A DNA stretch of 64,000 nt from Candidatus Omnitrophota bacterium (GCA_029261065.1 JAJDCB010000022.1:443-64442), one strand, 5' to 3'; shown: positions 26,517 to 63,233, counted from the stretch's first letter. Program-made: numbers and translations. The notes: generated by a model from the sequence alone, not told the origin.

Positions 26517-26847
26517 GAAAAATTTATTGTTAATTCTTTTTGCTGGCTTATCTTTTGGTATGGTTGCTTTAGTTGTTAATACTTCTTTAAAGAGTAATCT
26601 TTTTGAAGTTCTTCCATATCTAAATTCAGAACCATGGTTTGTGACAACAATTGTTGATTTTTATTTTAATATTGTGATCATCTCTGTTTGGGTTGTCTAT
26701 AAAGAGAAAAGCCATTTTAAGGCTTTGATTTGGATTATTTCATTTATTTTATTAGGAAGTATATCAACGGCATTTTATGTGTTTCTTCAAATAATAACTT
26801 TAAAACAAAATGACACAATGGATCAAGTTGTATTAAGAAAGGTGTAA
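26497..26847 (+). CDS. Small integral membrane protein (3 TM), function unknown
   Basis: Hydrophobic helices. Overlaps the marR stop, so it sits in the operon with the lipid-modification genes. Confidence 0.45.
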   Translation: MRSMMNKKNLLLILFAGLSFGMVALVVNTSLKSNLFEVLPYLNSEPWFVTTIVDFYFNIVIISVWVVYKEKSHFKALIWIISFILLGSISTAFYVFLQIITLKQNDTMDQVVLRKV

Positions 26848-26851
26848 GGAT

Positions 26852-30733: not shown

Positions 30734-30758
30734 ATGATTTAAAAAAGGGAAGGTTAAT

Positions 30759-32027
30759 ATGCCTGGAATAAAAACTATTCACAAAAGAAATAAAGGTGCC
30801 CATAAAAGATTAAGTCTATATCAAAAAATTATTGATAAAGTTTTTCGGCCGATGACTTTAGGGGGATTAACAATTACGTTGCCTGATGGTGATTTATTAG
30901 AATATGGAGATGGGAATGGCGTTATCGCTAATGTTCGTGTTTTAGATAATGTTTTCTTTAAAAAGTGTGTTCTCTACGGTGATGTGGGTTTTGGTGAGTC
31001 TTATGTTGATGGTGATTGGGAGACGGAGGACATCACAAAGGTCATCGAATGGATGATTACGAATGTTGAAAACCACCCAACACTTATGTCAGATAAGATT
31101 AAGAAATCTCCGGTTAATTTTTTTAAAATGTTTAATGATGCCATTTCGTTATTTCGTAAAAATTCTATGCAAGGAAGTCGTAAGAATATAAGTGCTCATT
31201 ATGATTTAGGGAATGATTTTTATCAGAAATTTCTCGATCCGAGTATGACTTATTCTGCCGCGTATTTTAAAAAATCTAGTGATTCGTTAGAAGAGGCTCA
31301 ATATCAAAAATATGAACAGCTTTGTCAAAAGGTGTGCCTTAAACAGACAGACCATCTTTTGGAAATTGGAAGTGGATGGGGCGGTTTCGCTATTTACGCA
31401 GCCAAAAACTTTGGATGTCGCGTAACAACAGTGACGGTATCGCAGCAACAATATGATTTTGCTTTAGCAAAGATACGTCACGAAGGTTTAGAAGATAAGA
31501 TTACAATTAAGTTTCAAGATTATCGTCAGATAGAAGGTTTGTATGATAAAATTGTATCCATTGAGATGTTAGAGGCAGTAGGACATGATTTTTATGAGAT
31601 TTACTTTAAGCAATGTCACCGTTTACTTAAAAAAGATGGAATGTTAGCTTTGCAGGTCATAACATCACCTGATAACCGATATGAATCATTTCGAAGAAGT
31701 ACGGATTGGATACAAAAGTATATTTTTCCAGGAAGCCTTCTGCCTTCGGTATCCGTTATTCAAGAAAATATTTGTAAGACAGGAGATTTGACGTTGTTAG
31801 ATTTTGAAGACATGAGCAAACATTACGCCAGAACTTTACATGAATGGTTTTTAGAGTTTAATTTAAAATTAGATGACATTAAAAATTTGGGATTGTCGGA
31901 AGAATTTGTTAGAAAGTGGAATTATTATTGGTGTTATTGTATGGCAGCCTTCAAGACGAGAAACATTAGTGTAGCGCAGCTTGTATATACTCGACCCAAC
32001 AACTTATCTCTTGGAGGCACAATATGA
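30759..32027 (+). CDS. cfa: Cyclopropane-fatty-acyl-phospholipid synthase
   Basis: Full-length CMAS architecture with SAM motif LLEIGSGWGGFAIYAAK and the C-terminal YWxYC motif. Confidence 0.85.
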   Translation: MPGIKTIHKRNKGAHKRLSLYQKIIDKVFRPMTLGGLTITLPDGDLLEYGDGNGVIANVRVLDNVFFKKCVLYGDVGFGESYVDGDWETEDITKVIEWMITNVENHPTLMSDKIKKSPVNFFKMFNDAISLFRKNSMQGSRKNISAHYDLGNDFYQKFLDPSMTYSAAYFKKSSDSLEEAQYQKYEQLCQKVCLKQTDHLLEIGSGWGGFAIYAAKNFGCRVTTVTVSQQQYDFALAKIRHEGLEDKITIKFQDYRQIEGLYDKIVSIEMLEAVGHDFYEIYFKQCHRLLKKDGMLALQVITSPDNRYESFRRSTDWIQKYIFPGSLLPSVSVIQENICKTGDLTLLDFEDMSKHYARTLHEWFLEFNLKLDDIKNLGLSEEFVRKWNYYWCYCMAAFKTRNISVAQLVYTRPNNLSLGGTI

Positions 32028-32587
32028 AAAAAATAATTTTAGCATTAGTGATCGTTTTATTATCGCAAGGATCATCTGCTAATTCTCCAAAAGAGCTCCA
32101 TGGTATTCGTTTTGCGGGTGATTACGTTTACGAGGGAGAGGAGCTGGTTCTACAAGGTGTTGCTTTAAAAAGACATTTCTTTATTAAAGCCTTTGTTGCT
32201 GGCTTATATTTAGGGGAACCTGTTATTACTGATGATTTTTTTGAGAATGTTCCTATAAGGATTGAAGTGTCCTATTTTGTAAATATTCCTGGCAAAAAAT
32301 TATCAAAGTATACAAGAGGTTTGATGCGCAAAAATGTAACAAAAGAGGAATATCAATCTATTAATAAAGAAATAAATATGATGAATCAATATTTTGTGGA
32401 TTTGAAACCCGGGGATCGTTATGCCTTAACGTATATCCCAGAAATAGGAACTCAATTTGAATATAATGGCGATTTTGTTGGTGTGATACCTGGAAAAGAT
32501 TTTGCTAACGGATTGTTCTCAACATGGATTGGTGTTCATCCTATGGATAAAAAAGTTAAACAACAGATATTGGGTTTGGCCTCATAA
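32024..32587 (+). CDS. Chalcone-isomerase-like (fatty-acid-binding) periplasmic protein
   Basis: Signal peptide plus a CHI-like fold pattern (HGIRFAGDYVYEGEELVLQGVALKRHFFIKAFVAGLY). ATGA overlap with cfa. Confidence 0.6.
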   Translation: MKKIILALVIVLLSQGSSANSPKELHGIRFAGDYVYEGEELVLQGVALKRHFFIKAFVAGLYLGEPVITDDFFENVPIRIEVSYFVNIPGKKLSKYTRGLMRKNVTKEEYQSINKEINMMNQYFVDLKPGDRYALTYIPEIGTQFEYNGDFVGVIPGKDFANGLFSTWIGVHPMDKKVKQQILGLAS

Positions 32588-34150: not shown

Positions 34151-34166
34151 TGTTTCGTATTGCTTA

Positions 34167-34200
34167 ATTTAGGAATTTCGAAGCTTTAACGAAATTCCAG
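34167..34200. repeat. 34-nt interspersed hairpin repeat, copy 1 (atttaggaatttcgaagctttaacgaaattccag)
   Basis: Identical to the reverse complement of 43089..43122. Contains a 9-bp stem ggaatttcg / cgaaattcc. Confidence 0.7.
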
Positions 34201-34246
34201 GTTTGTTTAAAACCCCTGTAGTTTGCTCAGCGGTTCATGCCTTTAA

Positions 34247-38484: not shown

Positions 38485-38538
38485 CGTTCTGTCATCGTTT
38501 ACTCAGTTTGTTATTTTAGAGAAAGGAGGGAGTAAATA

Positions 38539-38739
38539 ATGGCACAAGGAAAAGTAAAGTGGTTTAACGCTACAAAAGGATTCGGTTTTATCGAACAAGA
38601 ATCAGGCCAAGATCTTTTTGTACATCACAATGAGATTCAAGGCGAAGGCTATAAGACATTAGACGAAGGTCAAGCAGTTGAATTCGAGGTTGCATCAGGA
38701 CCAAAGGGTGACTACGCAACGAATGTCGTAAAGCAATAA
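38539..38739 (+). CDS. cspA: Cold-shock protein (CspA family)
   Basis: 66 aa. RNP1/RNP2 motifs KGFGFI and VFVHH. Confidence 0.95.
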
Positions 38740-43065: not shown

Positions 43066-43088
43066 ATAATCAAGGGTATTAAACCTAT

Positions 43089-43122
43089 CTGGAATTTCGT
43101 TAAAGCTTCGAAATTCCTAAAT
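43089..43122. repeat. 34-nt interspersed hairpin repeat, copy 2 (inverted relative to copy 1)
   Basis: ctggaatttcgttaaagcttcgaaattcctaaat is the exact reverse complement of 34167..34200. Confidence 0.7.
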
Positions 43123-43161
43123 AAACGTAGTTTTGGCAAAATAGAGATAAGCCTTTTTTTG

Positions 43162-43262: not shown

Positions 43263-43317
43263 AGTTCTTCTGCTTACTGTTATTTGCTCGTTAATTTTTA
43301 AAAGGAGGCAGTAAATA

Positions 43318-43518
43318 ATGGTAAAAGGAACAGTAAAGTGGTTTAGTAACCAAAAAGGCTATGGTTTCATTACACCAGAGTCAGGTAAAGATGTGTTTGT
43401 TCACCACTCAGAAATTCAAGGAGATGGCTACAAAACATTGGAAGAAGGAGAAGCGGTTGAGTTTGAGGTTGAGGATGGAGAAAAAGGTGAGCAAGCTAAA
43501 AATGTCGTAAAATCATAA
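43318..43518 (+). CDS. cspA: Cold-shock protein (CspA family), second copy
   Basis: 66 aa. RNP1/RNP2 motifs KGYGFI and VFVHH. Shine-Dalgarno context identical to the first csp. Confidence 0.95.
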
Positions 43519-53542: not shown

Positions 53543-53731
53543 ATGGCGGAATTCTGGGAACAACAATTGATGGATAGGCTTCTAAATCTGGCATTTGAAT
53601 ATCGTGTCAGCGAAAAAGAAATTATGCCTGCCAAACAAGTCAATGAAGTGATGGATTTTGTGAAGTTTCTCTTAAAGGAACAAGAACAAATAACCATCGA
53701 GAAGATAAAATCGTCAAAAATTAGTATTTAA
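53543..53731 (+). CDS. Small hypothetical protein heading the sulfur-carrier cluster
   Basis: 62 aa. Strong RBS taaggagg. 30 nt upstream of the ThiS-like gene. Confidence 0.4.
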   Translation: MAEFWEQQLMDRLLNLAFEYRVSEKEIMPAKQVNEVMDFVKFLLKEQEQITIEKIKSSKISI

Positions 53732-53760
53732 CGACCTGCAATAATATTTCAAAAGAATAC

Positions 53761-54000
53761 TTGAGGAGTTTTTTTATGAAAATTACTGTCAATGGCAAAG
53801 AAGAGACTATAGAGGGCGCAACTCTTTCTGTGAAGGGTCTTCTCAGTGCTTTAAATGTGTCCCAGCCGGATATGGTGTCTGTGCAACTTAACGGGGCCTT
53901 TGTAAACAAAGAAAATTATGAAACAACAACTGTCAAAGAGGCGGATACGGTTGATTTTCTTTATTTTATGGGTGGGGGAGCTCATATCTTTTCATTATGA
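53761..54000 (+). CDS. ThiS/MoaD-like sulfur-carrier protein with a C-terminal extension beyond the Gly-Gly (HcyS/CysO-like)
   Basis: MKITVNGKEETIEG...VQLNGAFV...DTVDFLYFMGGG then AHIFSL before the stop. The stop overlaps the metY start (ATGA). Confidence 0.75.
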   Translation: MRSFFMKITVNGKEETIEGATLSVKGLLSALNVSQPDMVSVQLNGAFVNKENYETTTVKEADTVDFLYFMGGGAHIFSL

Positions 54001-55235
54001 AAGATCCAGATTTTATAACTAAAATTTTACATAATCGTTTTTTAAAAAGCGATCCACATGGTTCAATGCATATGCCTGTGTATGAAAACGTGGCGTTTGA
54101 ATTTGAGAGTGCGGAAGATATCGAATTAGCCTTTCAACGTAAGAAGCCGGCACATATGTACTCGAGAATCAGCAACCCAACGGTAGAAGCCTTTGAACAA
54201 CGTATCAGGGCTGTCACCGATGCTTCGGGTGTTATTGCTGTTTCCTCCGGAATGGCTGCCATTACAAATGTAATCATGACGATTGCAGGTCAAGGCGATA
54301 ACATTATTACAACCAAACATCTTTTTGGAAATACGTATTCTTTATTTGAGAAGACCTTTAAAGATTGGGGTTTGGAAGTTCGATTTGCGGATTTAACACA
54401 AGCGGAATCTCTAAGCCAACTCATTGATGGGAAAACCAAAGCTATCTTTTTTGAAACCATTACCAATCCACAATTAGAAATTGTTGATATCAAGGCTTTA
54501 TCGGAGGTTGCGAAGAAAAATAATGTGTTATTGTTAGCAGACACAACATTAACTCCTCCGTATGTCTTTGAATCAAAGAAATTTGGTGTTGATGTCGAGG
54601 TTCTTTCAAGTACAAAATATATTTCCGGTGGTGCTACAACTGTTGGCGGTCTTATTATTGATAATGGTTTCTTTGATTGGAGCAAAAATGAGAAGTTAGC
54701 CGATGATGCCAAACAATTTGGTCCTTTTGCTTTTATTAGTCGACTCAGACGACAAGTTTATCGTAATTTAGGTTCATGCATGTCAGCGCATTGTGCTTTT
54801 TTACAAAGTGTTGGTTTAGAGACTCTTCCTTTGAGGGTTGATGTTTCTTGTGCGAATGCATTAACTGTTGCAAATTATTTAGAAGAAAATCCTTTAGTTA
54901 AGAAGGTCGATTATCCTGGATTACAAAGTTCACCTTATCATGATATTGCTGAGCAACAATTTGGAGATAGGTCTGGGGGACTTTTAACGTTTGATTTAGA
55001 ATCGAAGGACGTTTGTTTTAAGTTTATGAATAAACTAAAACTTATCAGACGTTCTACTAATCTAAATGATAATCGAACACTTATTCTGCATCCGGCGTCG
55101 ACCATTTTTTGTGAATATGATGATGCGCTTAAAGAAGAGATGCATGTTAGAGAAACAATGATAAGGCTGTCTGTTGGTATTGAGGGTGTGCATGATTTGA
55201 TGAATGATATCGAACAAGCGTTAGCGGTCGGATAA
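53997..55235 (+). CDS. metY: O-acetylhomoserine sulfhydrylase / Cys-Met-metabolism PLP-dependent enzyme (MetY-like)
   Basis: PF01053-type pattern. N-terminal MHMPVYENVAFEF. PLP-lysine motif SSTKYISGG. Confidence 0.85.
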   Translation: MKDPDFITKILHNRFLKSDPHGSMHMPVYENVAFEFESAEDIELAFQRKKPAHMYSRISNPTVEAFEQRIRAVTDASGVIAVSSGMAAITNVIMTIAGQGDNIITTKHLFGNTYSLFEKTFKDWGLEVRFADLTQAESLSQLIDGKTKAIFFETITNPQLEIVDIKALSEVAKKNNVLLLADTTLTPPYVFESKKFGVDVEVLSSTKYISGGATTVGGLIIDNGFFDWSKNEKLADDAKQFGPFAFISRLRRQVYRNLGSCMSAHCAFLQSVGLETLPLRVDVSCANALTVANYLEENPLVKKVDYPGLQSSPYHDIAEQQFGDRSGGLLTFDLESKDVCFKFMNKLKLIRRSTNLNDNRTLILHPASTIFCEYDDALKEEMHVRETMIRLSVGIEGVHDLMNDIEQALAVG

Positions 55236-55253
55236 TTTTTAAATAGCATGAAA

Positions 55254-55356
55254 GATACAAGTAACAAGATACAAGACACAAAAAATAATCAATGACCAAA
55301 AAGAAAATAACCAAAGAGTTTGATTATTCAGTCATTGGATATTGATTATTTTTTGC
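55254..55356. repeat. MITE-like palindromic repeat, copy A (acaagNNacaag heptamer-like units plus the caaaaaataatcaa...aataaccaaa hairpin)
   Basis: Close match to the reverse complement of the right arm of copy B at 56326..56451. Internal inverted repeat caaaaaataatcaatgac / gtcattgg..attgattattttttg. Confidence 0.6.
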
Positions 55357-55360
55357 CAAA

Positions 55361-55435
55361 GCGTCAAGAGACGCTGGTTCGGCCGTAGGCCGAATAACTT
55401 GCCCCGCCTTTGGCGGGGTCCCGCTAACAGCGGGA
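55361..55435. repeat. Array of four consecutive GC-rich stem-loops (gcgtc..gacgc; ttcggcc..ggccgaa; gccccgcc..ggcggggtc; cccgct..agcggg)
   Basis: Read directly from the sequence. Strongly GC-rich relative to the local AT-rich context. REP-like or a structured RNA. Confidence 0.5.
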
Positions 55436-55498
55436 TACCTTGTACCTTGGTTATTTTATAGAATTCTGACAATATCTACTTTCGGTTGAGGAGACAAT

Positions 55499-56305
55499 AT
55501 GGATTTTAATGAAGAACAATTAGAGCGTTATAGCCGTCATATCATTTTGCAAGATGTGAGTATTGAAGGTCAGCAGAAGATTATGGAAGGTAAGGTGCTT
55601 ATTATAGGAATGGGAGGCTTAGGTGCGCCTGTTGCTCTTTATTTAGCCGCCGCTGGTGTTGGGACGCTTGGGCTCGTTGATGGTGATGTTGTTGATTTAA
55701 GTAATTTGCAACGACAAGTCATTCATTTTACGCCTGATGTTGGAAAGCCAAAGGTTCTTTCTGCTAAAGAGAAGATTGCTCAAATTAATCCGGATGTTAA
55801 GGTTGTTACGCATCAAGAGTTAGCTTTGGCTAACAATATTGCTGATTTAATTAAGGACTATGATTTCATTATTGATGGAACGGATAACTTTCCTGCCAAG
55901 TTTTTAGTGAACGATGCTTGCGTGTTTGGCAAAAAGCCATTTTCACATGGGGGTATTTTAAGATTTGATGGACAAACCATGACGCATGTTCCAGGGGAAG
56001 CCTGTTATCGATGTGTTTTTGGTTTTGCGCCACCCTTAAATGCTGTTCCGTCATGTTCACAAGCAGGTGTTCTTGGAGCGATTGCCGGAATGCTTGGAAC
56101 GATTCAAGCAACCGAAGCGCTTAAGTTTTTAGTCGGTAAAGGAGAGTTGTTAACCAATCGGTTGTTAGTTTTTAATGCGTTAAACATGAATTTTAGAACA
56201 GTGAATTTGAAAAAAAATGCGAACTGCCCTGTGTGTGGAGACAATCCTTCGATTACGGAGTTGAGGGATGAGGAGCAGAAGGCTTGTGATATTACGCAGA
56301 GGTAA
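55499..56305 (+). CDS. ThiF/MoeB/HesA-family E1-like adenylyltransferase with a C-terminal zinc tetrad
   Basis: Nucleotide-binding GMGGLGAPVALYLAAAGVG. CxxC...CxxC (CYRC, CPVC). Confidence 0.85.
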   Translation: MDFNEEQLERYSRHIILQDVSIEGQQKIMEGKVLIIGMGGLGAPVALYLAAAGVGTLGLVDGDVVDLSNLQRQVIHFTPDVGKPKVLSAKEKIAQINPDVKVVTHQELALANNIADLIKDYDFIIDGTDNFPAKFLVNDACVFGKKPFSHGGILRFDGQTMTHVPGEACYRCVFGFAPPLNAVPSCSQAGVLGAIAGMLGTIQATEALKFLVGKGELLTNRLLVFNALNMNFRTVNLKKNANCPVCGDNPSITELRDEEQKACDITQR

Positions 56306-56325
56306 AGTAGGTAAAGGGAAGCAAT

Positions 56326-56451
56326 AATCAAGTTACAAGTTACAAGTTACAAAAAATAATCAAAAACCAGACAACAACAATAACCAAACATTTGGTTATT
56401 TGTAATTGGTCATTGTTTCTTTTTTGTAACTTGTATCTTGTAACTTGTACC
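56326..56451. repeat. MITE-like 126-nt imperfect palindrome, copy B, with three tandem caagtta heptamers in the left arm and a central perfect hairpin aataaccaaa-cat-tttggttatt
   Basis: Left and right arms are diverged reverse complements of each other. Fills the thiF-like / JAMM intergenic region. Confidence 0.6.
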
Positions 56452-56471
56452 TTCTGCGAGGTAATTAAATT

Positions 56472-56867
56472 ATGAAAATTCAAAAACAAATTTTAGACAA
56501 TATTATTAAGCACGCCAAAACCGGCTTGCCTTTAGAAATTTGCGGTTATCTCGCATCAAAAGACGGCGTGGTTATCAAGCATTACGAGCTTACCAACATT
56601 GATCAAAGCGAAGAGCATTTTTCTTTTGATCCAGCAGAACAATTTGCCACCGTTAAAGATGCTCGGGCCAATGGATTAGAATTATCAGCTGTTTATCACA
56701 GTCATCCTGTTACACCCGCGAGGCCATCACAAGAAGATATCAAGTTGGCGTATGATCCAAACATTAGTTATGTGATTGTTTCTATGGCTGAGCGAGAAGG
56801 TGATGTGAAGTCGTTTAAGATTCGTGAGGGTGTTGTTGAGAAGGAAGAGATTGAGGTTGTTAGTTAA
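56472..56867 (+). CDS. JAMM/MPN+ metalloprotease (Mec+/HcyD-like)
   Basis: EICGYL plus JAMM motif HSHPvtparpSqeD (H-x-H-x7-S-x2-D). Confidence 0.85.
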   Translation: MKIQKQILDNIIKHAKTGLPLEICGYLASKDGVVIKHYELTNIDQSEEHFSFDPAEQFATVKDARANGLELSAVYHSHPVTPARPSQEDIKLAYDPNISYVIVSMAEREGDVKSFKIREGVVEKEEIEVVS

Positions 56868-56890
56868 TATTTGCTGTTTGACTCTTATGG

Positions 56891-56912
56891 GATCCCCGCT
56901 TCCGCGGGGACG
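56891..56912 (+). terminator. GC-rich hairpin tccccgc-ttcc-gcgggga after the JAMM gene (same family as 45916 and 55401)
   Basis: Perfect 7-bp stem. No strong T-run, so it is a terminator or REP-like element. Confidence 0.35.
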
Positions 56913-57013
56913 ACACTTTAAATTTTACTTGAAGTATATATATTATTTGCTATACTTTAAATAAGTTAAAAATAAACTTATTTAAGGGGTAATCCTTTAA
57001 TTGGAGAATTCAT

Positions 57014-59473
57014 ATGATTAAGAAATCAGCTAATGCATTAAAGACTCATACGTTACCAGATAATCTAGGTGATGAAATAAACGTGCTTGAAACTTATGTT
57101 GAGAGGTTTAAGAAAGATGACCTTTCCTTAATGGAATTTAAAGTTCAGCGCGTTCCATTTGGTGTCTATGAGCAACGTAAAAAAGACACTTATATGATTC
57201 GTATTCGTTGTGCAGGTGCCTGTGTTCGCCCTGACCAACTTAAAAAAATTGCAGAGATTTCTCAAGTTCATGGAGCTGATTACATCCATTTAACGTCTCG
57301 CCAAGAAATCCAATTACATTATGTTTTAGTTGATAGTATTGTTCCTGTTATGTGGGAACTTAAAGCCGCTGATTTGGCTTCTCGTGGAGGAGGAGGAAAT
57401 ACGGTTCGAAATATTATGGCTCAAGAAGATGCTGGTATCGCCGAAGATGAGGCTTTTGATGTAACGCCTTATGCCATTGAGTTAACGTCACGTTTAGTTG
57501 TAGAGCCGGATTCTTGGAACTTACCAAGAAAGTTTAAGTTTGCTTTCTCTGGATCTTCCGATGATCGCGGTTATGCAACTCTTCATGATGTTGGTTACAT
57601 CGCCAAAATCAAAGACGGTGTAAAAGGTTTTACTGTTTATGTCGCTGGAGGAATGGGAGCAAAAGCGATGTTAGGAAATCTTTTGTTTGATTTTATTCCT
57701 GATACGGAAGTTTACAATGTTGCTAAGGCCACAAAAAATCTTTTTTACAAAAATGGTAATAGAAAAAATAAACATGCCTCACGCCTACGTTTTTTGTGGA
57801 AACAATTAGGTGGAGATGAGTTTAAACGTATCTTTTTTGAAGAATACGAAGCTGTAAAGAAAGAAAACTATCTACCTCTAGCTGTAAAAGATATTGATAA
57901 TGTTGGTATTGACCCGAATTCGGATATTGAACAACCAGCGGATCAAAAAGACTATGAGTTGTGGAAAAAGCGTTTTGTTCAATCACAAAGACAAGAAGGG
58001 CTTAATGCGATTATTTTACCTATTCATTTAGGTCATGTTGATAATGACAAAGCGATTAAACTTGCTGAGTTTTTGATGCCATTTGGTGAAAACGTTATCC
58101 GTATTCGAAAAGATCAAAACTTTTTGATCAGAAATATTATGGATAAATATCTACCGAATCTTTATAACATGTTGAAAGATACATTTGATAACTTTAATAG
58201 ACCATTTATCATTGATAAAGTTTTAGCCTGTGCCGGTGCCTCAACATGCCAATTGGGTATTTGTTTATCACCTGGAGCAGCTACTGCAACCAAAAGATAT
58301 TTAGAAACTTGTGATCTTGATTTGGATGCGGTTTCAGATGCCAAAGTTAACATCTCAGGATGTCCAAACTCTTGTGGTCAGCACCATGTGGCTGATTTAG
58401 GTTTCTTTGGAAAGGTAGCGCGCCGAGGAGATAAGGTTCATCCAGCATATAATGTCTTAGTCGGTTCTCTTGTCAAAGAAGGCGAAACCGAATTTGCTCA
58501 AAAAGTAGGAGAGATTGCCGCACGCGATATGCCTTTTATTACAAAAGCTGTTTTTAAATCTTATTTAGGAAAAAGAGCGAAATACGAAACCTTTAGAGAT
58601 TATATGCGTAGTGATGAAGGTAAAGAAGACGTAAAAGCTCTTTGTGTGAAATATAAATCGGACATTCCTGATTATGAAGTGGATAAAAATTATTATCTTG
58701 ATTGGGGAACTGATAAAACGTTTTCAGTAGCTGAACGTGGTAAGGGTGAATGTTCAGCCGGGATTTTTGATTTGATTGAAAGTGATTTAGGTCACATTCA
58801 ACAAGCCAAAAAACTTCTTGAGGAAATTAATGAAAATGGTGGTGATATTGGGCAAAAGCAAACGCTGTTAAGAGACGTCATTTATTATAGCGCTCGAATC
58901 CTTTTGATTTCAAAGGCGCTTGAGCCGCAGAATGAAAAAGAAGTTTACAGTTATTTCCGTGAGCATTTTATCAATACGGGATTAATTGCTGCTTCCTTTG
59001 ATGAGATCATTAAATTAGCGGAAGCCGGAGATTTTAAGACGTTGATCGAAAAAGAAGATCAAGTGTTTGCCTTGGCAGATCGTCTTAAATACCTTTATGA
59101 TGTCATGGATAGTGCCTTTCGATATAAACTTAAAGAGGGCGACAGTCTTCATAACGATAAGGTTGATTTTATTCCTGTGGTCCATCAAGCGGCAAGTGCG
59201 TCTGCCAAAGCTAAGACAGCCTCAACGACAGCAACAAAAACCGCAGATCCTGCTTTAGTCAAAGATTTTCGAGGCGTGGGTTGTCCAATGAACTTTGTGA
59301 AGACAAAGATGGAGTTGGCAAAACTCAAGTCTAAAGATATTCTTGAAATATGGTTAGACGATGGCCAACCGATTGAAAATGTCCCTGGTTCCGTTCGTGA
59401 AGAAGGGCATACTGTTTTAGAACAACAAAAGACGGATGAAGGTTATTGGTCCGTTGTTATAGAGAAGCAATAA
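57014..59473 (+). CDS. Sulfite/nitrite reductase-family siroheme-[4Fe-4S] enzyme fused to a C-terminal TusA-like sulfur-carrier domain
   Basis: NIR_SIR ferredoxin-like and 4Fe-4S modules with Cys clusters CAGASTCQLGIC and SGCPNSCGQHH. The C-terminal 70 aa (FRGVGCPMNFVKTKMELAKL...WSVVIEK) match the TusA CPxP-type motif. Confidence 0.8.
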   Translation: MIKKSANALKTHTLPDNLGDEINVLETYVERFKKDDLSLMEFKVQRVPFGVYEQRKKDTYMIRIRCAGACVRPDQLKKIAEISQVHGADYIHLTSRQEIQLHYVLVDSIVPVMWELKAADLASRGGGGNTVRNIMAQEDAGIAEDEAFDVTPYAIELTSRLVVEPDSWNLPRKFKFAFSGSSDDRGYATLHDVGYIAKIKDGVKGFTVYVAGGMGAKAMLGNLLFDFIPDTEVYNVAKATKNLFYKNGNRKNKHASRLRFLWKQLGGDEFKRIFFEEYEAVKKENYLPLAVKDIDNVGIDPNSDIEQPADQKDYELWKKRFVQSQRQEGLNAIILPIHLGHVDNDKAIKLAEFLMPFGENVIRIRKDQNFLIRNIMDKYLPNLYNMLKDTFDNFNRPFIIDKVLACAGASTCQLGICLSPGAATATKRYLETCDLDLDAVSDAKVNISGCPNSCGQHHVADLGFFGKVARRGDKVHPAYNVLVGSLVKEGETEFAQKVGEIAARDMPFITKAVFKSYLGKRAKYETFRDYMRSDEGKEDVKALCVKYKSDIPDYEVDKNYYLDWGTDKTFSVAERGKGECSAGIFDLIESDLGHIQQAKKLLEEINENGGDIGQKQTLLRDVIYYSARILLISKALEPQNEKEVYSYFREHFINTGLIAASFDEIIKLAEAGDFKTLIEKEDQVFALADRLKYLYDVMDSAFRYKLKEGDSLHNDKVDFIPVVHQAASASAKAKTASTTATKTADPALVKDFRGVGCPMNFVKTKMELAKLKSKDILEIWLDDGQPIENVPGSVREEGHTVLEQQKTDEGYWSVVIEKQ

Positions 59474-59505
59474 TAAAAGTTATGTAGGTACCTATTTTTT
59501 TTGAA

Positions 59506-59826
59506 ATGGTATTTTTTCTAAAATACAAATCCATTAATGCGCAACAAGCAAAGAAGCTGCTTGATGAGAATCAAATAACATTAGTGGATACTCGCGAGCA
59601 TGAATCTTACCAAAAGTCTCATATTCCTGGGGCGATACATATTCACGATAATAATATTCATCAGCTGGATAGTTCAATAGATAAGACAAAGCCTATCCTT
59701 TGTTATTGTTATAAAGGAAAGGGAAGTCGATTAGTCTGCAAAAAATTATATAAGGCTGGGTTTCGCTTGGTATTTAACTTAAAGGGTGGATACGAGTCAT
59801 GGGAGATTGTATTTTCCACATTATGA
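59506..59826 (+). CDS. Single-domain rhodanese (sulfurtransferase)
   Basis: Rhodanese fold with the active-site loop CYCYKGKGS. The start may lie downstream of 59506. Confidence 0.7.
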   Translation: MVFFLKYKSINAQQAKKLLDENQITLVDTREHESYQKSHIPGAIHIHDNNIHQLDSSIDKTKPILCYCYKGKGSRLVCKKLYKAGFRLVFNLKGGYESWEIVFSTL

Positions 59827-61304
59827 AAAACACTAATAAACTCAAAAAGTACTATGCTAATATCGATTATATAAGATTGAATCCATTCTTTTTAATATTC
59901 TTTATTATTACCCTCTGGGCCTCCGTCAGCTTTGCAGACGCGGTTTACCTTCGACGAGGTGCTAAAATTATTGGAGAAATTGTTAGATATAACAATGAAG
60001 GCGTCAGCATTCAAGGGCAGGAAATTCTTTATTCTTATCCGTGGAATCATGTTGATCACATAGAGATTTTTTCTTTGAGGGATAAATTAAAGAAAAAGGA
60101 GCAGGTGCAGTTGTCTAAACATAAGGAAGATATTAGTCATTCAAAGAATCTTTATGCGCGAGCTCGTTCTTTAGTGAAAATACCAGCGCCGGGTTTTGGA
60201 CGCAAAACAAAATATTCCCTTTATGATCTTCAGAAGATTCTCTTGGGTTTTGATAAAGAAGACCCTCAAGTGTTGGCTTTATTGTTATTCAATTATGAGG
60301 CCATTGATTTATTTAAGAAAGCAATTGATCATTCGAGTGATAGGGATAGTGGGTACATTAGAAAGTTCCAACCGCTCTTTACTCTTCTTTTAATTCAAGC
60401 CCAAGATTATTTAGTGAATGGTCAAACAGCTAAGGCCGAGGAAAACTATAGATCTGCTGCTAAATTCATAAGGTTTCTTTGGCAAAGAGAAAATGCAAAA
60501 TATTCTTTCAATTCTTCTTCAATAAATGATCCAGCAACCTTGGACCGATGTCTCGATGATTTCTCACTCGAAATTTTGAAGGCCATGCAAGCCAATCAAC
60601 TGAGTAAAACATTTTATGAAAGCATTATCAAAGAATTGACAACGGTTAAAATTAGTGCAGAATCAGGAAAAATCCATCTGGCAGATGTATATCTTTATAC
60701 CGACAAGGAAATTAAAAAGGAAATGAGGGGTCTTGACCCGAGACTTTGGGACTCCGTTGAGGAGTACGCGCTCTTTTTTATGATCTTGGCAGATACGCCT
60801 CAACAGCAAAAAGAAATGAAAGAAGAGTTGCAAAGTTATTTTAAAGACCTTGATGCCAAAGATTCATCGGTATTTTTTCCAACATCAAACCACTATATTG
60901 CCGGTTCCATTCGCGCCTATTACCGTATTGCCGCAAAACATCACAATCTTTTATTGGCCGCAGCGATTCAAGCTTATCGAATGGAGTACAAAGATTTTCC
61001 GGAAAGCTTAAACGATTTGATTCCGAAATACCTGTCAGAGCTCCCGGTTGATCCATTTCGTAATTTTGAGCCAGTCACGTATTTAAAGAAGGAGAATGAT
61101 TTTTTACTCTACAGTATTGGACCTGATCTCATTGACCAAAAGGGGAAAATTGTGAGCCGTGATTATGGCAATGGTTGGGACAGTGTTGGTGATATTCTTT
61201 GGGGAAAAGATTATTCATTAAGAAGATTAGATACAAAGACAATCCCAGAAGAAGAGAAGGTCCCGGCAGATACTGTGCTTCCCGGCGGGCGCCGTACTCG
61301 CTAA
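59823..61304 (+). CDS. Membrane-anchored hypothetical protein with a C-terminal region resembling a type II secretion GspG-like pseudopilin domain
   Basis: ATGA overlap with the rhodanese gene. N-terminal TM. C-terminal VDPFRNFEPVTYLKKENDFLLYSIGPDLIDQKGK..GNGWDSVGDILW resembles the GspG DPW...Y.L.S.G.DG motif. Confidence 0.45.
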   Translation: MKNTNKLKKYYANIDYIRLNPFFLIFFIITLWASVSFADAVYLRRGAKIIGEIVRYNNEGVSIQGQEILYSYPWNHVDHIEIFSLRDKLKKKEQVQLSKHKEDISHSKNLYARARSLVKIPAPGFGRKTKYSLYDLQKILLGFDKEDPQVLALLLFNYEAIDLFKKAIDHSSDRDSGYIRKFQPLFTLLLIQAQDYLVNGQTAKAEENYRSAAKFIRFLWQRENAKYSFNSSSINDPATLDRCLDDFSLEILKAMQANQLSKTFYESIIKELTTVKISAESGKIHLADVYLYTDKEIKKEMRGLDPRLWDSVEEYALFFMILADTPQQQKEMKEELQSYFKDLDAKDSSVFFPTSNHYIAGSIRAYYRIAAKHHNLLLAAAIQAYRMEYKDFPESLNDLIPKYLSELPVDPFRNFEPVTYLKKENDFLLYSIGPDLIDQKGKIVSRDYGNGWDSVGDILWGKDYSLRRLDTKTIPEEEKVPADTVLPGGRRTR

Positions 61305-61351: not shown

Positions 61352-62377
61352 TTATTTAGAGTATTTTTTGATGAGAGTATCGATATCGGTTTGGTGAAGG
61401 TCTAAATCTTTTGTTTTAAGAAACTCTTCGGTATAGAGTTTGGAGAAGGAACGTTCTCCTAGATCACAGCTGAAAGTAACAATGCGTTTGCCTGGACCAT
61501 TTTCAATAGCAATTTTTAGGGCACCTGCAAGATTAAGAGCAGAGCTACTTCCTAATAAAATACCGTCGTGTTGTCTGACATATTGAGAGATGGTTACTAA
61601 GTCTTGATCGGGGAGGCTAAAGGCTTCATCAATCTGGGCTTTGGCAAAGTTAGCAACTAAACGCATAATCCCAATGCCTTCGGTGATCGATCCGCCTTCA
61701 GATTTAAATTCTTTGGTATGAACATAAGAGCAGAGTCCGGAACCACCTGGATCAACAAGAACGACTTTTAGGTTTGGTAGTTTTTCTTTAAGGAAAGAGG
61801 AGCAGCCTCCAATTGTGCCACCAGTTCCAGCGACGGAGACAAGATAATCAAGTTTTCCATCCGTTTGTTCCAAGATTTCAGGGCCAGTTCGTGTATAATG
61901 AGCTTTGTAGTTGCTTAAGTTTTCAAATTGATTCGCCCACCAGTATTTGTCAGAATCTTCTTCAGCTAAACGGCGAGCGGTGTGATAGAAATGGTTTTCG
62001 TTTTTAAAAGGGCAGGGATCAACCAATTTTAATTGGGCGCCATGAAGTTCGATCATACGTTGTTTTTCAATGGCTTGGTTGTTGGGCATAACGGCTAAGC
62101 AGTCATACCCTAAAGCCTTGGCCACTAAAGCGAGACCAATACCGGTGTTACCCGCTGTTCCTTCAACAATGGTCATACCTTTTTTTAGCTGACCAGACTC
62201 AATCGCATCAAGCGTCATTTGAAGGGCGGCGCGATCTTTAATGGAGCCACCGGGGTTTAGATGTTCGCATTTGACAAAGATGTCGCAACCAGTAAGTTCA
62301 CTAAGGGAAGGCACACGCAGTAACGGCGTGTTACCGATAAGTTCTGATAGATTTTTTGCTGGGGTGGATGTATTCAT
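61352..62377 (-). CDS. Cysteine synthase / cystathionine beta-synthase-family PLP enzyme (CysK/CysM-like)
   Basis: PALP motifs NPGGSIKDRAAL and GTAGNTGIGLA. Start set at the internal Met (62377) because the longest ORF (to 62443) would overlap the divergent gene start. Confidence 0.75.
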   Translation of the reverse strand: MNTSTPAKNLSELIGNTPLLRVPSLSELTGCDIFVKCEHLNPGGSIKDRAALQMTLDAIESGQLKKGMTIVEGTAGNTGIGLALVAKALGYDCLAVMPNNQAIEKQRMIELHGAQLKLVDPCPFKNENHFYHTARRLAEEDSDKYWWANQFENLSNYKAHYTRTGPEILEQTDGKLDYLVSVAGTGGTIGGCSSFLKEKLPNLKVVLVDPGGSGLCSYVHTKEFKSEGGSITEGIGIMRLVANFAKAQIDEAFSLPDQDLVTISQYVRQHDGILLGSSSALNLAGALKIAIENGPGKRIVTFSCDLGERSFSKLYTEEFLKTKDLDLHQTDIDTLIKKYSK

Positions 62378-62441
62378 AAGATTATGAATCAAAGTATATC
62401 TTGGAAGGGAAATCTGGTCAAGTTTATATTGAAAGGGGATC

Positions 62442-63233
62442 ATGGATAAATATCAGATTCTTGGAATTGTGCTTTTTACACTTATTCTTCTCGCGGAGAA
62501 CTTCTTTCCCTATAGAAAGCATTATAAGCACCGGATGCGACATTATGGACGTAACACTGTTTTATCAGCCGTGAATGGATTGATTATGGGATTGTCTGGG
62601 GCCTATATCACCGTGCATGTCTTTTTATGGGTGGCTGAGAATAAGATAGGAATGCTTAATCAATTTGAAGCCTCATTTGTTATTAAAGCTATCTTGGCTT
62701 TTTTGATCTTTGATGCGTGGACTTATTTCTGGCATCGGATCAATCATGTGATTCCTTTTCTGTGGCGATTTCATCGTGTGCACCACAATGATCCGGCGAT
62801 GGATGTTAGTACTGCGCTACGATTCCATCCAATCGAAATATTGTTATCAGCCATTATTAATCTCGGTATCATTGCGGCCTTTGGGATTCGCCTGGAGCAT
62901 CTCATCGTCTATAAACTTATTTTTCATACCAATGTTTTTTTCCATCACAGTAACGTCGCTATTTCTGATTCCGTTGATAAGATGTTACGTTACATCATCG
63001 TGACACCCAATATGCATAAAGTGCATCACTCCTGCAAACAAGAAGAAACAGATTCAAACTTTGCGAGTATTCTCTCATGGTGGGATCGTTTATTTGGTTC
63101 TTATTGTGAACGTGATCCAAAGTCGATTATATTTGGATTAGACTCTTATATGGAAGAGCGATGGCAAACCGTTAAGGGGTTGTTTAAGTTGCCGTTTGCA
63201 GGGCCTTGTAAGAAAAAAGAAGATAACGGTTAA
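62442..63233 (+). CDS. Fatty-acid hydroxylase / sterol-desaturase-family membrane di-iron enzyme
   Basis: Histidine boxes HRINH, HRVHHND and HKVHHS. Confidence 0.8.
   Translation: MDKYQILGIVLFTLILLAENFFPYRKHYKHRMRHYGRNTVLSAVNGLIMGLSGAYITVHVFLWVAENKIGMLNQFEASFVIKAILAFLIFDAWTYFWHRINHVIPFLWRFHRVHHNDPAMDVSTALRFHPIEILLSAIINLGIIAAFGIRLEHLIVYKLIFHTNVFFHHSNVAISDSVDKMLRYIIVTPNMHKVHHSCKQEETDSNFASILSWWDRLFGSYCERDPKSIIFGLDSYMEERWQTVKGLFKLPFAGPCKKKEDNG

What the first reader, a model, noticed from the sequence alone, without database searches (positions are those of the whole stretch)
53543..59826. ThiS-like / E1-like / JAMM sulfur-carrier system embedded with MetY, a TusA-fused sulfite reductase and a rhodanese
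Seven co-directional genes: small ORF, ThiS-like carrier with residues after the Gly-Gly, metY overlapping by ATGA, ThiF/MoeB E1 with a Zn tetrad, JAMM protease, sulfite reductase with a C-terminal TusA domain, and rhodanese. The architecture matches protein-thiocarboxylate-dependent homocysteine/methionine biosynthesis (HcyS-HcyD-HcyF-MetY-Sir of Wolinella succinogenes; CysO-Mec+ of mycobacteria). It adds a longer carrier extension, a TusA fusion on the sulfite reductase and a rhodanese, which suggests a complete sulfide-to-thiocarboxylate relay. The same gene trio (Ub-like fold, E1, JAMM) also defines bacterial ubiquitin-like conjugation systems, so the carrier may have protein targets.
Basis: partly seen in the sequence, partly recalled or inferred. 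Interest (0 to 1): 0.85.

Follow-up and report, generated by a model that had tools for sequence, protein, structure and literature searches.

The report
Known thiocarboxylate methionine-sulfur operon, Omnitrophota copy
This is a well-conserved five-gene operon that makes homocysteine using a small ubiquitin-like sulfur-carrier protein, orthologous to the Wolinella succinogenes system characterised in 2011, so it is a new example of a known pathway rather than a new system.

Summary
All seven ORFs and their domains are real. Five of them (carrier, MetY, E1, JAMM, Sir-TusA) are orthologues of the genes at the locus encoding the solved MetY structure 3ri6, which I take to be Wolinella succinogenes HcyS/MetY/HcyF/HcyD/Sir. 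Identities are 51/48/62/57/40%. The same order occurs in 40 of 68 assessable relatives from many phyla.

- The reference Sir already carries the C-terminal TusA domain, as do about 70 of 80 relatives.
- The carrier family ends in a conserved FLYFMGGG plus a non-conserved tail of 0-15 residues, so the six-residue AHIFSL tail is ordinary.
- The small upstream ORF and the rhodanese occur in none of 83 related loci. Relatives usually have DUF2061-CysH-CysD-CysN or siroheme synthase where the rhodanese sits.

No sulfate-activation, thiamin or Moco genes lie in the 64 kb.

One thing is under-described. Between the reductase core and TusA, this Sir family carries a module of about 160 residues with no Pfam model. 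It is predicted to be a HEPN-like helical bundle with an invariant cysteine (GECSAG), which suggests a possible two-cysteine sulfur relay.

Verdict: new member of a known kind, low-to-moderate interest.

The parts
53776..54000 (+). HcyS-like ThiS-family sulfur-carrier protein, 74 aa. The mature end is predicted as ...FLYFMGGG (last Gly codon ends at 53979). The removable tail AHIFSL is encoded at 53980-53997.
   Evidence: TIGR01683 60 bits, above cutoff. 51% identical to the 69-aa carrier of the 3ri6 locus, which ends FLYFMGGG-A. E = 4e-19 to solved ThiS-family structures 2k5p/3cwi, which end FLYFMGGG-K. GAGGAG lies 7 nt before the ATG at 53776. Tail variability in 50 homologues.
53997..55235 (+). 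MetY (O-acetylhomoserine sulfhydrylase) of the carrier-linked clade. The start overlaps the carrier stop (ATGA). The PLP lysine lies in the S-T-K motif at residues 205-207.
   Evidence: PF01053 359 bits. Best solved structure is 3ri6 at 420 bits, against 294 or less for ordinary MetY. 48% identical to the 3ri6 protein. Operon-linked MetY in relatives score 289-717 bits, unlinked second copies 71-271.
55499..56305 (+). HcyF-like ThiF/MoeB-type E1 adenylyltransferase, 268 aa, with no rhodanese domain and a zinc tetrad C169/C172/C243/C246.
   Evidence: PF00899 269 bits. 62% identical to the 272-aa ThiF of the 3ri6 locus. About 195 bits to ThiF 1zud and MoeB 1jw9. Motifs.
56472..56867 (+). HcyD-like JAMM/MPN+ metalloprotease, 131 aa, with Glu22 and H76xH78x7S86xxD89 intact.
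   Evidence: Prok-JAB 86.5 bits. 57% identical to the 130-aa JAB of the 3ri6 locus. 116 bits to 2kks and a match to PfJAMM1 5ld9, with ligands aligned. Motif.
57014..59473 (+). Assimilatory siroheme-[4Fe-4S] sulfite reductase of the NirA/Sir type, 819 aa, with a C-terminal extension. The reductase core is about aa 1-545 (57014-58648).
   Evidence: NIR_SIR, NIR_SIR_ferr and TusA. Cluster cysteines C406x5C412 and C450x3C454. 40% identical over full length to the 764-aa Sir-TusA of the 3ri6 locus.
58679..59149 (+). Middle module of Sir (aa ~556-712) with no Pfam model. It is a predicted helical bundle with HEPN-like topology. Invariant Cys580 (codon 58751-58753), in the GECSAGxFDL motif, sits at the N-cap of the first long helix.
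59258..59470 (+). TusA (SirA-like) sulfur-carrier domain (aa ~749-819) with Cys757 (codon 59282-59284) in GVGCPMN. It is joined to the middle module by an Ala/Ser/Thr/Lys-rich variable linker (aa ~713-748).
   Evidence: PF01206 69 bits. 1jdq E = 3e-9. Invariant C757-P758 and N760. Linker variability is visible in the alignment.
59506..59826 (+). Single-domain GlpE-like rhodanese, 106 aa, active-site Cys68. It lies 32 nt after sir, has no clear ribosome-binding site, and its stop overlaps (ATGA) the start of an unknown 493-aa protein. It is a lineage-specific neighbour and its membership of the system is unproven.
   Evidence: PF00581 80.6 bits; GlpE model 75.5 bits, below the 102 cutoff. No standalone rhodanese follows Sir in the 83 related loci; the nearest is 2.4 kb downstream in L058. 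Junction sequences.
53543..53731 (+). Small 62-aa ORF with a strong AAGGAGG ribosome-binding site. It has a weak DUF2281/VapB-like similarity and is not part of the conserved system.
   Evidence: Only sub-threshold hits. No homologue in any related locus. Absent upstream of the carrier in the closest relatives.
55252..55360 (.). Partial copy of an AT-rich palindromic element (ACAAGWT heptamers plus a hairpin) in the metY-E1 gap. Three GC-rich mini-hairpins follow at 55377-55436.
   Evidence: Repeats D12, I2 and I5. Folding z-scores of -3.6 and -4.3. Sequence.
56329..56453 (.). Full copy of the same palindromic element in the E1-JAMM gap, a ~125-nt near-perfect hairpin with three heptamer repeats on each arm.
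   Evidence: Repeats I3 and I6. MFE -49.7 kcal/mol, z = -10.1. Alignment of the copies. The heptamer array occurs only at these two sites in the window.

Best explanation
Genes 53776-59473 form a five-gene operon for protein-thiocarboxylate-dependent homocysteine (methionine) synthesis. It is orthologous to HcyS-MetY-HcyF-HcyD-Sir of Wolinella succinogenes.

Proposed steps (all inferred by orthology; none shown here):
1. The JAMM protease removes the AHIFSL cap from the carrier and exposes ...FMGGG.
2. The E1 adenylates that C-terminus.
3. Reduced sulfur made by the siroheme sulfite reductase converts the acyl-adenylate to carrier-COSH.
4. MetY adds the thiocarboxylate to O-acetylhomoserine.
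5. After an S-to-N acyl shift, the JAMM protease releases homocysteine and recycles the carrier.

The HEPN-like Cys580 module and the TusA Cys757 domain on Sir are conserved parts of this family. They probably help pass sulfur from the reductase to the E1-carrier complex. The rhodanese and the small upstream ORF are lineage-specific neighbours, not core components.
For: - Domain assignments are all above the curated cutoffs.
- The catalytic and ligand residues are intact.
- MetY's closest solved structure is 3ri6, 126 bits ahead of ordinary MetY.
- The locus encoding the 3ri6 protein holds ThiS(69)-ThiF(272)-JAB(130)-Sir(764, with TusA). Identities to the window proteins are 51/62/57/40%, and 48% for MetY.
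- The canonical order ThiS-MetY-E1-JAMM-Sir occurs in 40 of 68 assessable loci spanning Omnitrophota, Bacteroidota, Acidobacteriota, Spirochaetota, Margulisbacteria, Planctomycetota, Desulfobacterota and others.
- It also occurs as an isolated five-gene unit in the three closest relatives.
- The conserved FLYFMGGG end with a variable cap fits JAMM processing.
- A database protein (P0157, 478 aa) carries both ThiS and Cys_Met_Meta_PP domains, a possible carrier-MetY fusion.
- The neighbourhood type was described by Iyer et al. 2006 (PMC1779556). The pathway is cited as established in PMC6225789 and PMC8191291.
Against: - No biochemistry exists for this organism.
- The window lacks sulfate-activation genes (CysD/N/H), siroheme synthase, metX/metA and metE/metH, so the sulfite source and the rest of the pathway are unseen.
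- The operon is interrupted by palindromic inserts that could affect co-expression.
- The primary Wolinella papers could not be read here. The step-by-step mechanism and the assignment of 3ri6 to W. succinogenes rest partly on my own knowledge, on PMC8191291, and on the Campylobacterota neighbours of P0121.
Confidence: 0.85

Rival explanations
1. The carrier, E1 and JAMM act mainly or additionally as a ubiquitin-like protein-conjugation system of the SAMP/UbaA/HvJAMM1 or TtuB/TtuC type. The carrier would be attached to lysines of target proteins and removed by the JAMM protease.
For: The Ubl + E1 + JAMM trio is the minimal set of such systems. The E1's second-best NCBIfam hit is SAMP-activating E1 UbaA, and the JAMM's only NCBIfam hit is desampylase. 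Dual sulfur-carrier and modifier roles are known for archaeal and Thermus Ubls (background in PMC11323500).
Against: Both hits fall below the curated cutoffs (330 vs 450 bits; 73 vs 130 bits). No E2 or E3 is in the cluster. The trio is fixed in an operon with MetY and Sir in dozens of phyla, which points to a metabolic role. Orthology is to the Wolinella biosynthetic proteins.
Confidence: 0.1
2. The locus is a thiosulfate- or persulfide-assimilating variant. The rhodanese would split thiosulfate into sulfite, which Sir reduces, and a sulfane sulfur. That sulfur would pass via TusA Cys757 and Cys580 to the E1-bound carrier adenylate, replacing the sulfate-activation module that relatives carry at the same position.
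For: The rhodanese sits 32 nt after sir, exactly where 29-34 of 80 relatives have DUF2061-CysH-CysD-CysN. No CysD/N/H lies in the 64 kb. The rhodanese is GlpE-like (thiosulfate sulfurtransferase model). The TusA domain has weak similarity to thiosulfate-handling YeeD/TsuB. TusA homologues can carry thiosulfonate (abstract of PMC4175335).
Against: Only this one lineage has the arrangement. The rhodanese lacks a clear ribosome-binding site and is translationally coupled to an unrelated unknown membrane or secreted protein rather than to sir. The closest relatives also lack nearby CysDNH and have no rhodanese. The GlpE score is below cutoff (75.5 vs 102). Sulfate genes may simply lie elsewhere in the genome.
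Confidence: 0.15
3. The carrier and E1 are ordinary ThiS/ThiF (thiamin) or MoaD/MoeB (molybdopterin) proteins that merely sit beside sulfur-assimilation genes.
For: The carrier passes the TIGR01683 thiS equivalog cutoff, and the E1 passes one MoeB subfamily model (276 vs 266 bits). Automated annotation would name them that way, and the solved homologue 2k5p was deposited as ThiS.
Against: No ThiG/ThiH/ThiC/ThiE or MoaE/MoaA genes lie in the 64 kb. The capped C-terminus with a dedicated JAMM protease is not a ThiS or MoaD feature. The fixed operon with MetY and Sir spans phyla. The carrier is 51% identical to the carrier of the 3ri6 locus but scores only 21 bits against B. subtilis ThiS 1tyg.
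Confidence: 0.03

Closest known systems
HcyS-HcyF-HcyD-MetY-Sir protein-thiocarboxylate methionine pathway of Wolinella succinogenes (Krishnamoorthy & Begley 2011; MetY structure 3ri6, Tran et al. 2011)
   Same: All five proteins are orthologous (51/62/57/48/40% identity). The carrier has the same FLYFMGGG end plus a cap. The E1 likewise lacks a rhodanese domain. The JAMM motif is the same. Sir has the same three-part architecture of reductase core, GECSAG helical module and TusA.
   Different: Gene order: in Wolinella metY is divergently transcribed and cysH-cysD-cysN precede hcyS, with siroheme synthase after sir. Here metY sits between the carrier and the E1, and no sulfate-activation or siroheme genes are nearby. 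The cap is six residues (AHIFSL) rather than one (Ala). A rhodanese follows sir, and palindromic inserts flank the E1 gene.
Neighbourhood type 4e of Iyer, Burroughs & Aravind 2006 (PMC1779556): ThiS/MoaD-like + JAB + E1 without rhodanese + SirA + sulfite reductase + O-acetylhomoserine sulfhydrylase + sulfate-assimilation genes
   Same: The component list matches, including the rule that the E1 lacks a rhodanese domain and a SirA (= TusA) is always present.
   Different: Sulfate transporter, ATP sulfurylase, PAPS reductase and APS kinase genes are absent from this window. A standalone rhodanese is present even though the class was defined as using SirA instead.
CysO-CysM-Mec+-MoeZ cysteine pathway of Mycobacterium tuberculosis
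   Same: A ThiS-like thiocarboxylate carrier, an E1, a JAMM protease and a PLP-dependent sulfhydrylase build a sulfur amino acid. Some relatives of this Sir in Acidobacteriota are followed by a CysK-JAMM-E1(+rhodanese) set of this type.
   Different: Here the sulfhydrylase is MetY (gamma-replacement on O-acetylhomoserine), not CysM. The E1 has no fused rhodanese. The carrier is capped.
Archaeal SAMP-UbaA-HvJAMM1 and Thermus TtuB-TtuC ubiquitin-like systems
   Same: A beta-grasp carrier with a Gly-Gly end, a ThiF-type E1 and a JAMM protease, with homology detectable by HMM.
   Different: Scores are below the family cutoffs. There is no evidence of conjugation, and the operon partners are metabolic enzymes.
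DsrAB-DsrC dissimilatory sulfite reduction (two-cysteine arm accepting sulfur at the siroheme site)
   Same: An analogy only. A siroheme sulfite reductase is associated with a flexible element that bears two conserved cysteines, here Cys580 and TusA Cys757 on the same polypeptide.
   Different: There is no sequence or fold relationship to DsrC. Sir here is the assimilatory NirA type. No evidence shows that either cysteine reaches the active site.

Membership tests
HcyS-type protein-thiocarboxylate homocysteine pathway (W. succinogenes) | ThiS-family beta-grasp carrier whose Gly-Gly(-Gly) C-terminus is capped by extra residue(s) | tested here: met
   TIGR01683 60 bits. 51% identical to the reference carrier. 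E = 4e-19 to solved 2k5p/3cwi.
HcyS-type protein-thiocarboxylate homocysteine pathway (W. succinogenes) | JAMM/MPN+ metalloprotease with intact E...HxHx7Sx2D encoded in the operon | tested here: met
   Prok-JAB 86.5 bits. Motif at residues 76-89. 57% identical to the reference JAB. Aligned to 2kks and 5ld9.
HcyS-type protein-thiocarboxylate homocysteine pathway (W. succinogenes) | ThiF/MoeB-type E1 without a C-terminal rhodanese domain | tested here: met
   ThiF covers residues 11-245 of 268, leaving no further domain. 62% identical to the reference ThiF. Zinc tetrad present.
HcyS-type protein-thiocarboxylate homocysteine pathway (W. succinogenes) | MetY of the carrier-linked clade | tested here: met
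   3ri6 scores 420 bits, the next solved MetY 294. 48% identity. Operon-linked and unlinked copies separate by score.
HcyS-type protein-thiocarboxylate homocysteine pathway (W. succinogenes) | Siroheme sulfite reductase with a C-terminal TusA/SirA domain in the same cluster | tested here: met
HcyS-type protein-thiocarboxylate homocysteine pathway (W. succinogenes) | Linkage to sulfate-activation genes (CysD/CysN/CysH), as in Wolinella and many relatives | tested here: not met
   phmmer with the reference CysN/D/H/G found nothing among all window ORFs. Pfam scans of the window's ORFs found none. This feature is accessory; the closest relatives also lack it.
HcyS-type protein-thiocarboxylate homocysteine pathway (W. 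succinogenes) | Carrier-COSH is the sulfur donor for MetY, and JAMM both uncaps the carrier and releases homocysteine | not testable with these tools
   Requires in vitro reconstitution and mass spectrometry.
CysO-CysM-Mec+-MoeZ cysteine pathway | CysM-type sulfhydrylase adjacent to the carrier, and an E1 fused to rhodanese | tested here: not met
   The adjacent PLP enzyme is MetY (PF01053), not PALP/CysM. The E1 lacks rhodanese. The only cysK-like gene (61352-62443) is on the opposite strand and is PRK10717-type. Relatives carry a TIGR01139 cysK upstream of the carrier.
Ubiquitin-like conjugation systems (SAMP/UbaA/JAMM; E2-containing bacterial systems) | Equivalog-level match to SAMP E1 or desampylase, or presence of an E2/E3 component | tested here: not met
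   UbaA model 330 bits vs cutoff 450, and desampylase 73 vs 130. No E2-like domain in any cluster protein.
Ubiquitin-like conjugation systems (SAMP/UbaA/JAMM; E2-containing bacterial systems) | Isopeptide conjugates of the carrier on target proteins | not testable with these tools
   Needs proteomics or immunoblotting.
ThiS/ThiF thiamin thiazole pathway | Co-occurrence with ThiG (and ThiH/ThiO, ThiC/E) | tested here: not met
   No such domains appear in the Pfam scans of the window's long ORFs, or among the Pfam-annotated genes around the cluster in the three closest relatives and the 3ri6 locus.
HEPN domain superfamily (for the Sir middle module) | Four-helix up-down bundle topology | tested here: inconclusive
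HEPN domain superfamily (for the Sir middle module) | Conserved Rx4-6H RNase motif | tested here: not met
   No histidine is invariant or nearly invariant in aa 545-712. The conserved residues are D563, E579, C580, S581, G583, F585, D586, D591, R628, R634 and Y695.

The most novel reading that the evidence does not exclude
The C-terminal arm of this Sir family may be a built-in two-cysteine sulfur relay. The arm consists of a HEPN-like helical module with invariant Cys580, a flexible linker, and a TusA domain with Cys757. It is conserved from Wolinella to Omnitrophota and, as far as I could find, is uncharacterised. It would capture reduced sulfur at or near the siroheme site and deliver it as a persulfide to the E1-bound carrier adenylate. 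Free sulfide would then never be released, in a formal analogy to DsrC in dissimilatory sulfite reduction. In this lineage the adjacent rhodanese would add a thiosulfate or persulfide entry point.
Probability: 0.2. Interest if true: 0.6.

Novelty: new member of a known kind. Interest (0 to 1): 0.27.

Why it matters
The pathway was predicted in 2006 and shown biochemically in 2011, so this locus is mainly an annotation gain. Genes that pipelines label ThiS, MoeB, a JAB-family peptidase and "TusA family protein" can be read as one methionine-sulfur operon, in a largely uncultured phylum (probably Omnitrophota) and in many others.

The comparison also shows how widespread and modular the five-gene unit is. 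At least 563 matching stretches were found among the GTDB species-representative genomes.

It also draws attention to a conserved reductase module with an invariant cysteine and no Pfam model, for which I found no functional study. That module gives a concrete, testable handle on how sulfur passes from sulfite reductase to a ubiquitin-like carrier.

Tried and rejected
- **Riboswitch or other RNA control.** Rfam gave nothing at gathering thresholds for the whole window. Relaxed thresholds gave only chance-level hairpin hits in the metY-E1 gap.
- **Promoter and terminator scans.** Nothing decisive: terminator-like sites were at the shuffled expectation, and promoter-like sites were only consensus matches.
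- **Sulfate-activation or siroheme genes in the window.** None.
- **Conservation of the small ORF, the rhodanese and the 493-aa ORF near Sir in relatives.** None, even with permissive phmmer settings.
- **Sequence relatives of the Sir middle module in PDB.** None.
- **The module outside Sir proteins.** Shorter hits exist, but without genomic context they cannot be told apart from gene fragments.
- **HEPN RNase motif in the module.** Absent.
- **AlphaFold-database fold search.** The library was unavailable.
- **Primary Wolinella papers PMC3089676 and PMC3176619.** Not held.
- **Literature on a Sir-TusA fusion or this pathway in Omnitrophota.** Nothing relevant.
- **More copies of the palindromic element.** None elsewhere in the window. 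No exact pattern match in JGI metagenomes.
- **Thiamin/Moco reading.** Considered and rejected.

Full report
**Observation.** Pfam and NCBIfam confirm every domain call:
- a ThiS-family carrier (TIGR01683 60 bits, cutoff 37);
- a Cys/Met PLP enzyme of the MetY type (359 bits);
- a ThiF/MoeB E1 with no extra domain (269 bits);
- a prokaryotic JAB protease (86.5 bits);
- a sulfite/nitrite reductase with a C-terminal TusA domain;
- a single-domain rhodanese (80.6 bits).

The small ORF at 53543 has only a sub-threshold DUF2281/VapB-like hit.

- the E1 CxxC...CxxC tetrad (C169/C172/C243/C246);
- the JAMM HxHx7Sx2D motif (residues 76-89);
- the Sir Cx5C...Cx3C cluster motif;
- the rhodanese active-site Cys68.

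The carrier stop and the metY start overlap as ATGA. There are two corrections. First, the carrier almost certainly starts at the ATG at 53776, seven bases after a GAGGAG. This gives MKITVNG..., like its homologues. Second, co-directionality means little, because nearly all long ORFs of the 64 kb lie on the + strand and GC skew is positive throughout.

**What it is.** MetY's best solved-structure match is 3ri6 at 420 bits. Ordinary MetY enzymes score 294 bits or less. PMC8191291 states that the only MetY structure described in the literature is the W. succinogenes enzyme, which uses a thiocarboxylated carrier protein instead of bisulfide. Linking the PDB code 3ri6 to that paper is my own knowledge. 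It is consistent with the Campylobacterota names of the nearest homologues.

I recovered the 3ri6 sequence and found the identical database protein P0121. Its locus reads:
- DUF2061, CysH, CysD, CysN;
- ThiS (69 aa), ThiF (272 aa), JAB (130 aa);
- Sir (764 aa, NIR_SIR domains plus TusA), then siroheme synthase;
- metY transcribed divergently.

Pairwise identities to the window proteins are 51% (carrier), 62% (E1), 57% (JAMM), 40% over full length (Sir) and 48% (MetY). The reference carrier ends FLYFMGGG-A, which matches the published HcyS-Ala precursor (name from my own knowledge). The window carrier ends FLYFMGGG-AHIFSL.

**Conservation.** A search with the Sir protein returned 4764 proteins at E ≤ 1e-10. 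Nearly all of the 120 best carry the same NIR_SIR + TusA domain set. Every hit that names an organism is Candidatus Omnitrophota or Omnitrophica. The nearest non-identical hit is 68% identical.

A scan of GTDB species-representative genomes found at least 563 matching stretches. The best 80 come from Omnitrophota, Bacteroidota, Acidobacteriota, Calditrichota, Spirochaetota, Margulisbacteria, Planctomycetota, Verrucomicrobiota, Fibrobacterota, Desulfobacterota and others.

Of the 68 loci with enough upstream sequence, 40 have ThiS-MetY-E1-JAMM directly before Sir in exactly that order. In 17 of these a canonical TIGR01139 cysK sits immediately upstream of the carrier.

The three closest metagenomic relatives (Sir 65-68% identical) have exactly the five genes and nothing else in common with the window's flanks. 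The conserved unit is therefore five genes, 53776-59473.

1. TusA fusion. This is not an addition. The reference Sir has it, and so do about 70 of the 80 relatives. Iyer, Burroughs and Aravind noted in 2006 that these neighbourhoods always contain SirA and an E1 without rhodanese (PMC1779556, Table 1 row 4e).
2. Longer carrier extension. In 50 homologous carriers the (D/E)FLYFMGGG end is nearly invariant. It is followed by a non-conserved tail of 0-15 residues. Six residues is unremarkable, and the lack of conservation fits a disposable cap.
3. Rhodanese. No standalone rhodanese follows Sir in any of the 83 related loci examined. At that position 29-34 of 80 relatives carry DUF2061-CysH-CysD-CysN, and 25 carry siroheme synthase nearby. 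The window's rhodanese lies 32 nt after sir. It has no clear ribosome-binding site. Its stop overlaps (ATGA) the start of an unrelated 493-aa protein with a hydrophobic N-terminus.
4. Small ORF. It has a good ribosome-binding site but no homologue in any related locus.

- Beta-grasp fold. The carrier matches solved ThiS-family structures 2k5p/3cwi at E = 4e-19 over its full length.
- JAMM ligands. They are intact and aligned to solved JAMM proteins.
- MetY substrate preference. This cannot be tested in silico.

**Context.** Pfam scans of the window's other long ORFs found two-component systems, an RND efflux pump, an ABC transporter, a cyclopropane-fatty-acid-type cluster, a DEAD-box helicase, FeoB, SpoU and a peroxiredoxin, among others. 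They found no thiamin, molybdopterin, sulfate-activation, siroheme, metX/metA or metE/metH genes. A direct phmmer search with the reference CysN/D/H/G proteins also found none. No Rfam family, including SAM riboswitches, reaches threshold anywhere in the window.

**An under-described part: the Sir C-terminal arm.** Between the reductase core (to about aa 545) and TusA (from about aa 749) lies a module of about 160 residues with no Pfam model. Its invariant residues include E579-C580-S581, G583, F585, D586, D591 and Y695. A variable Ala/Ser/Thr-rich linker follows.

- AlphaFold2 predicts a confident helical bundle (mean pLDDT 85, above 90 for the bundle) with Cys580 at the N-terminal cap of the first long helix.
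- The HEPN Rx4-6H motif is absent. This is therefore a fold resemblance, not membership.
- An exhaustive HMMER search found only 268 representative clusters. Most are ~770-810-aa proteins with the module at ~540-700, so it is essentially specific to this Sir family.
- The reference Sir has the same motif, GVGECSAGMYDL.
- Of the 80 relatives, 75 keep the motif and 70 keep the TusA cysteine motif.

Two conserved cysteines on a flexible arm of a sulfite reductase that always travels with an E1 and a carrier suggest a sulfur relay. This is inference only. I found no paper addressing it in the searchable library.

**Mechanism.** Shown here: orthology, intact catalytic residues and operon conservation. 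The rest is inferred from the Wolinella work, cited in PMC6225789 and PMC8191291, with step details from my own knowledge:
1. The JAMM protease removes AHIFSL.
2. The E1 adenylates the Gly C-terminus.
3. Sulfur from Sir converts the adenylate to carrier-COSH.
4. MetY couples it to O-acetylhomoserine.
5. An acyl shift follows, and JAMM cleavage releases homocysteine.

Confidence is 0.85 for the five-gene core.

**Rivals.**
- An additional ubiquitin-like conjugation role (0.10). HMM scores are below the SAMP-system cutoffs and there is no E2.
- A thiosulfate- or persulfide-fed variant that uses the rhodanese (0.15). It has a single-lineage arrangement only.
- A plain ThiS/ThiF or MoaD/MoeB reading (0.03). 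It is contradicted by the gene context.

**Side observation.** The unusually long gaps within the operon are 264, 166 and 146 nt, against median gaps of 0-11 nt in relatives. They hold structured inserts.
- A ~125-nt near-perfect palindrome built on ACAAGTT heptamers lies at 56329-56453 (MFE -49.7 kcal/mol, z = -10).
- A partial copy lies at 55252-55360, so the two flank the E1 gene in inverted orientation.
- GC-rich mini-hairpins lie at 55377-55436 and 56893-56911.
- No further copies were found in the window or in JGI metagenomes.
- Their function is unknown. They could be mobile inserts, processing or stability elements, or operators.

**Verdict.** This is a new member, probably from Omnitrophota, of a known and biochemically characterised system. 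The one open question is the role of the conserved Cys-bearing helical module plus TusA on Sir, and it applies to the whole family rather than to this locus. Interest is 0.27.

Noticed in passing
window 56329-56453 and 55252-55360: Two copies (one full, one partial) of an AT-rich palindromic element flank the E1 gene in inverted orientation. It starts with three tandem ACAAGWT heptamers. The full copy folds at -49.7 kcal/mol (z = -10). Relatives have these genes tightly packed. No other copy was found in the window or in JGI metagenomes. The heptamer arrays also match weak -35/-10-like patterns.
   Followed up: partly
window 55377-55436 and 56893-56911: Short GC-rich hairpins without T-tracts lie in a 37% GC genome. 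They are TTCGGCC/GGCCGAA, CCCCGCC/GGCGGGG, CCCGCT/AGCGGG and CCCCGC/GCGGGG, inside the metY-E1 and JAMM-sir gaps. The triple hairpin has a folding z-score of -4.3.
   Followed up: partly
window 59823-61304: A 493-aa ORF has a start that overlaps the rhodanese stop (ATGA). It has a hydrophobic N-terminus and no Pfam family. Its only hits are weak ones to Leptospira-named N-terminal domain models (NF047433, NF047503). No homologue lies near Sir in any relative.
   Followed up: partly
window 61352-62443 (- strand): A PRK10717-type cysteine synthase/CBS-like gene (448 bits, above cutoff) converges on the cluster. It is a different subfamily from the canonical TIGR01139 cysK that sits directly upstream of the carrier in 17 relatives.
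   Followed up: partly
loci L025, L026, L029, L031, L077, L079, L080 (Acidobacteriota): The same Sir family, some members lacking TusA, is followed here by CysK, a divergent JAMM and a larger E1 with a rhodanese-like region. This is a CysO/CysM/Mec-type set instead of the MetY set.
   Followed up: no
loci L009, L012, L016, L019-L021, L032, L034, L035, L039, L041, L044, L050 (L033 and L075 similar; mostly Bacteroidota): An extra standalone TusA gene of about 75 aa sits between the E1 and JAMM genes (in L033 just after JAMM), immediately before a Sir that mostly also carries the fused TusA.
   Followed up: no
protein P0157: A 478-aa database protein carries both ThiS (PF02597) and Cys_Met_Meta_PP domains. 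It is either a natural carrier-MetY fusion or a gene-calling artefact across an overlapping stop/start.
   Followed up: no
window 38522-38739 and 43301-43518: Two paralogous small genes share 5' regions that are 91% identical over the first 45 nt. Both start AAAGGAGG...ATGG, and their first residues (MAQGKVKWF / MVKGTVKWF) look like cold-shock proteins. Nearby is a 55-nt inverted repeat pair (34164-34218 / 43071-43125, 89% complementary).
   Followed up: no
window 1-64000: GC skew is strongly and uniformly positive (+0.08 to +0.34), and almost all long ORFs are on the + strand across the whole 64 kb. Shared gene direction therefore cannot be used as operon evidence here.
   Followed up: no
window 26497-32587: A co-directional lipid-modification-type cluster: DUF1475, DUF1295, CMAS methyltransferase, an amine-oxidase-like flavoprotein, DUF1365, a second CMAS and a chalcone-isomerase-like protein.
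   Followed up: no
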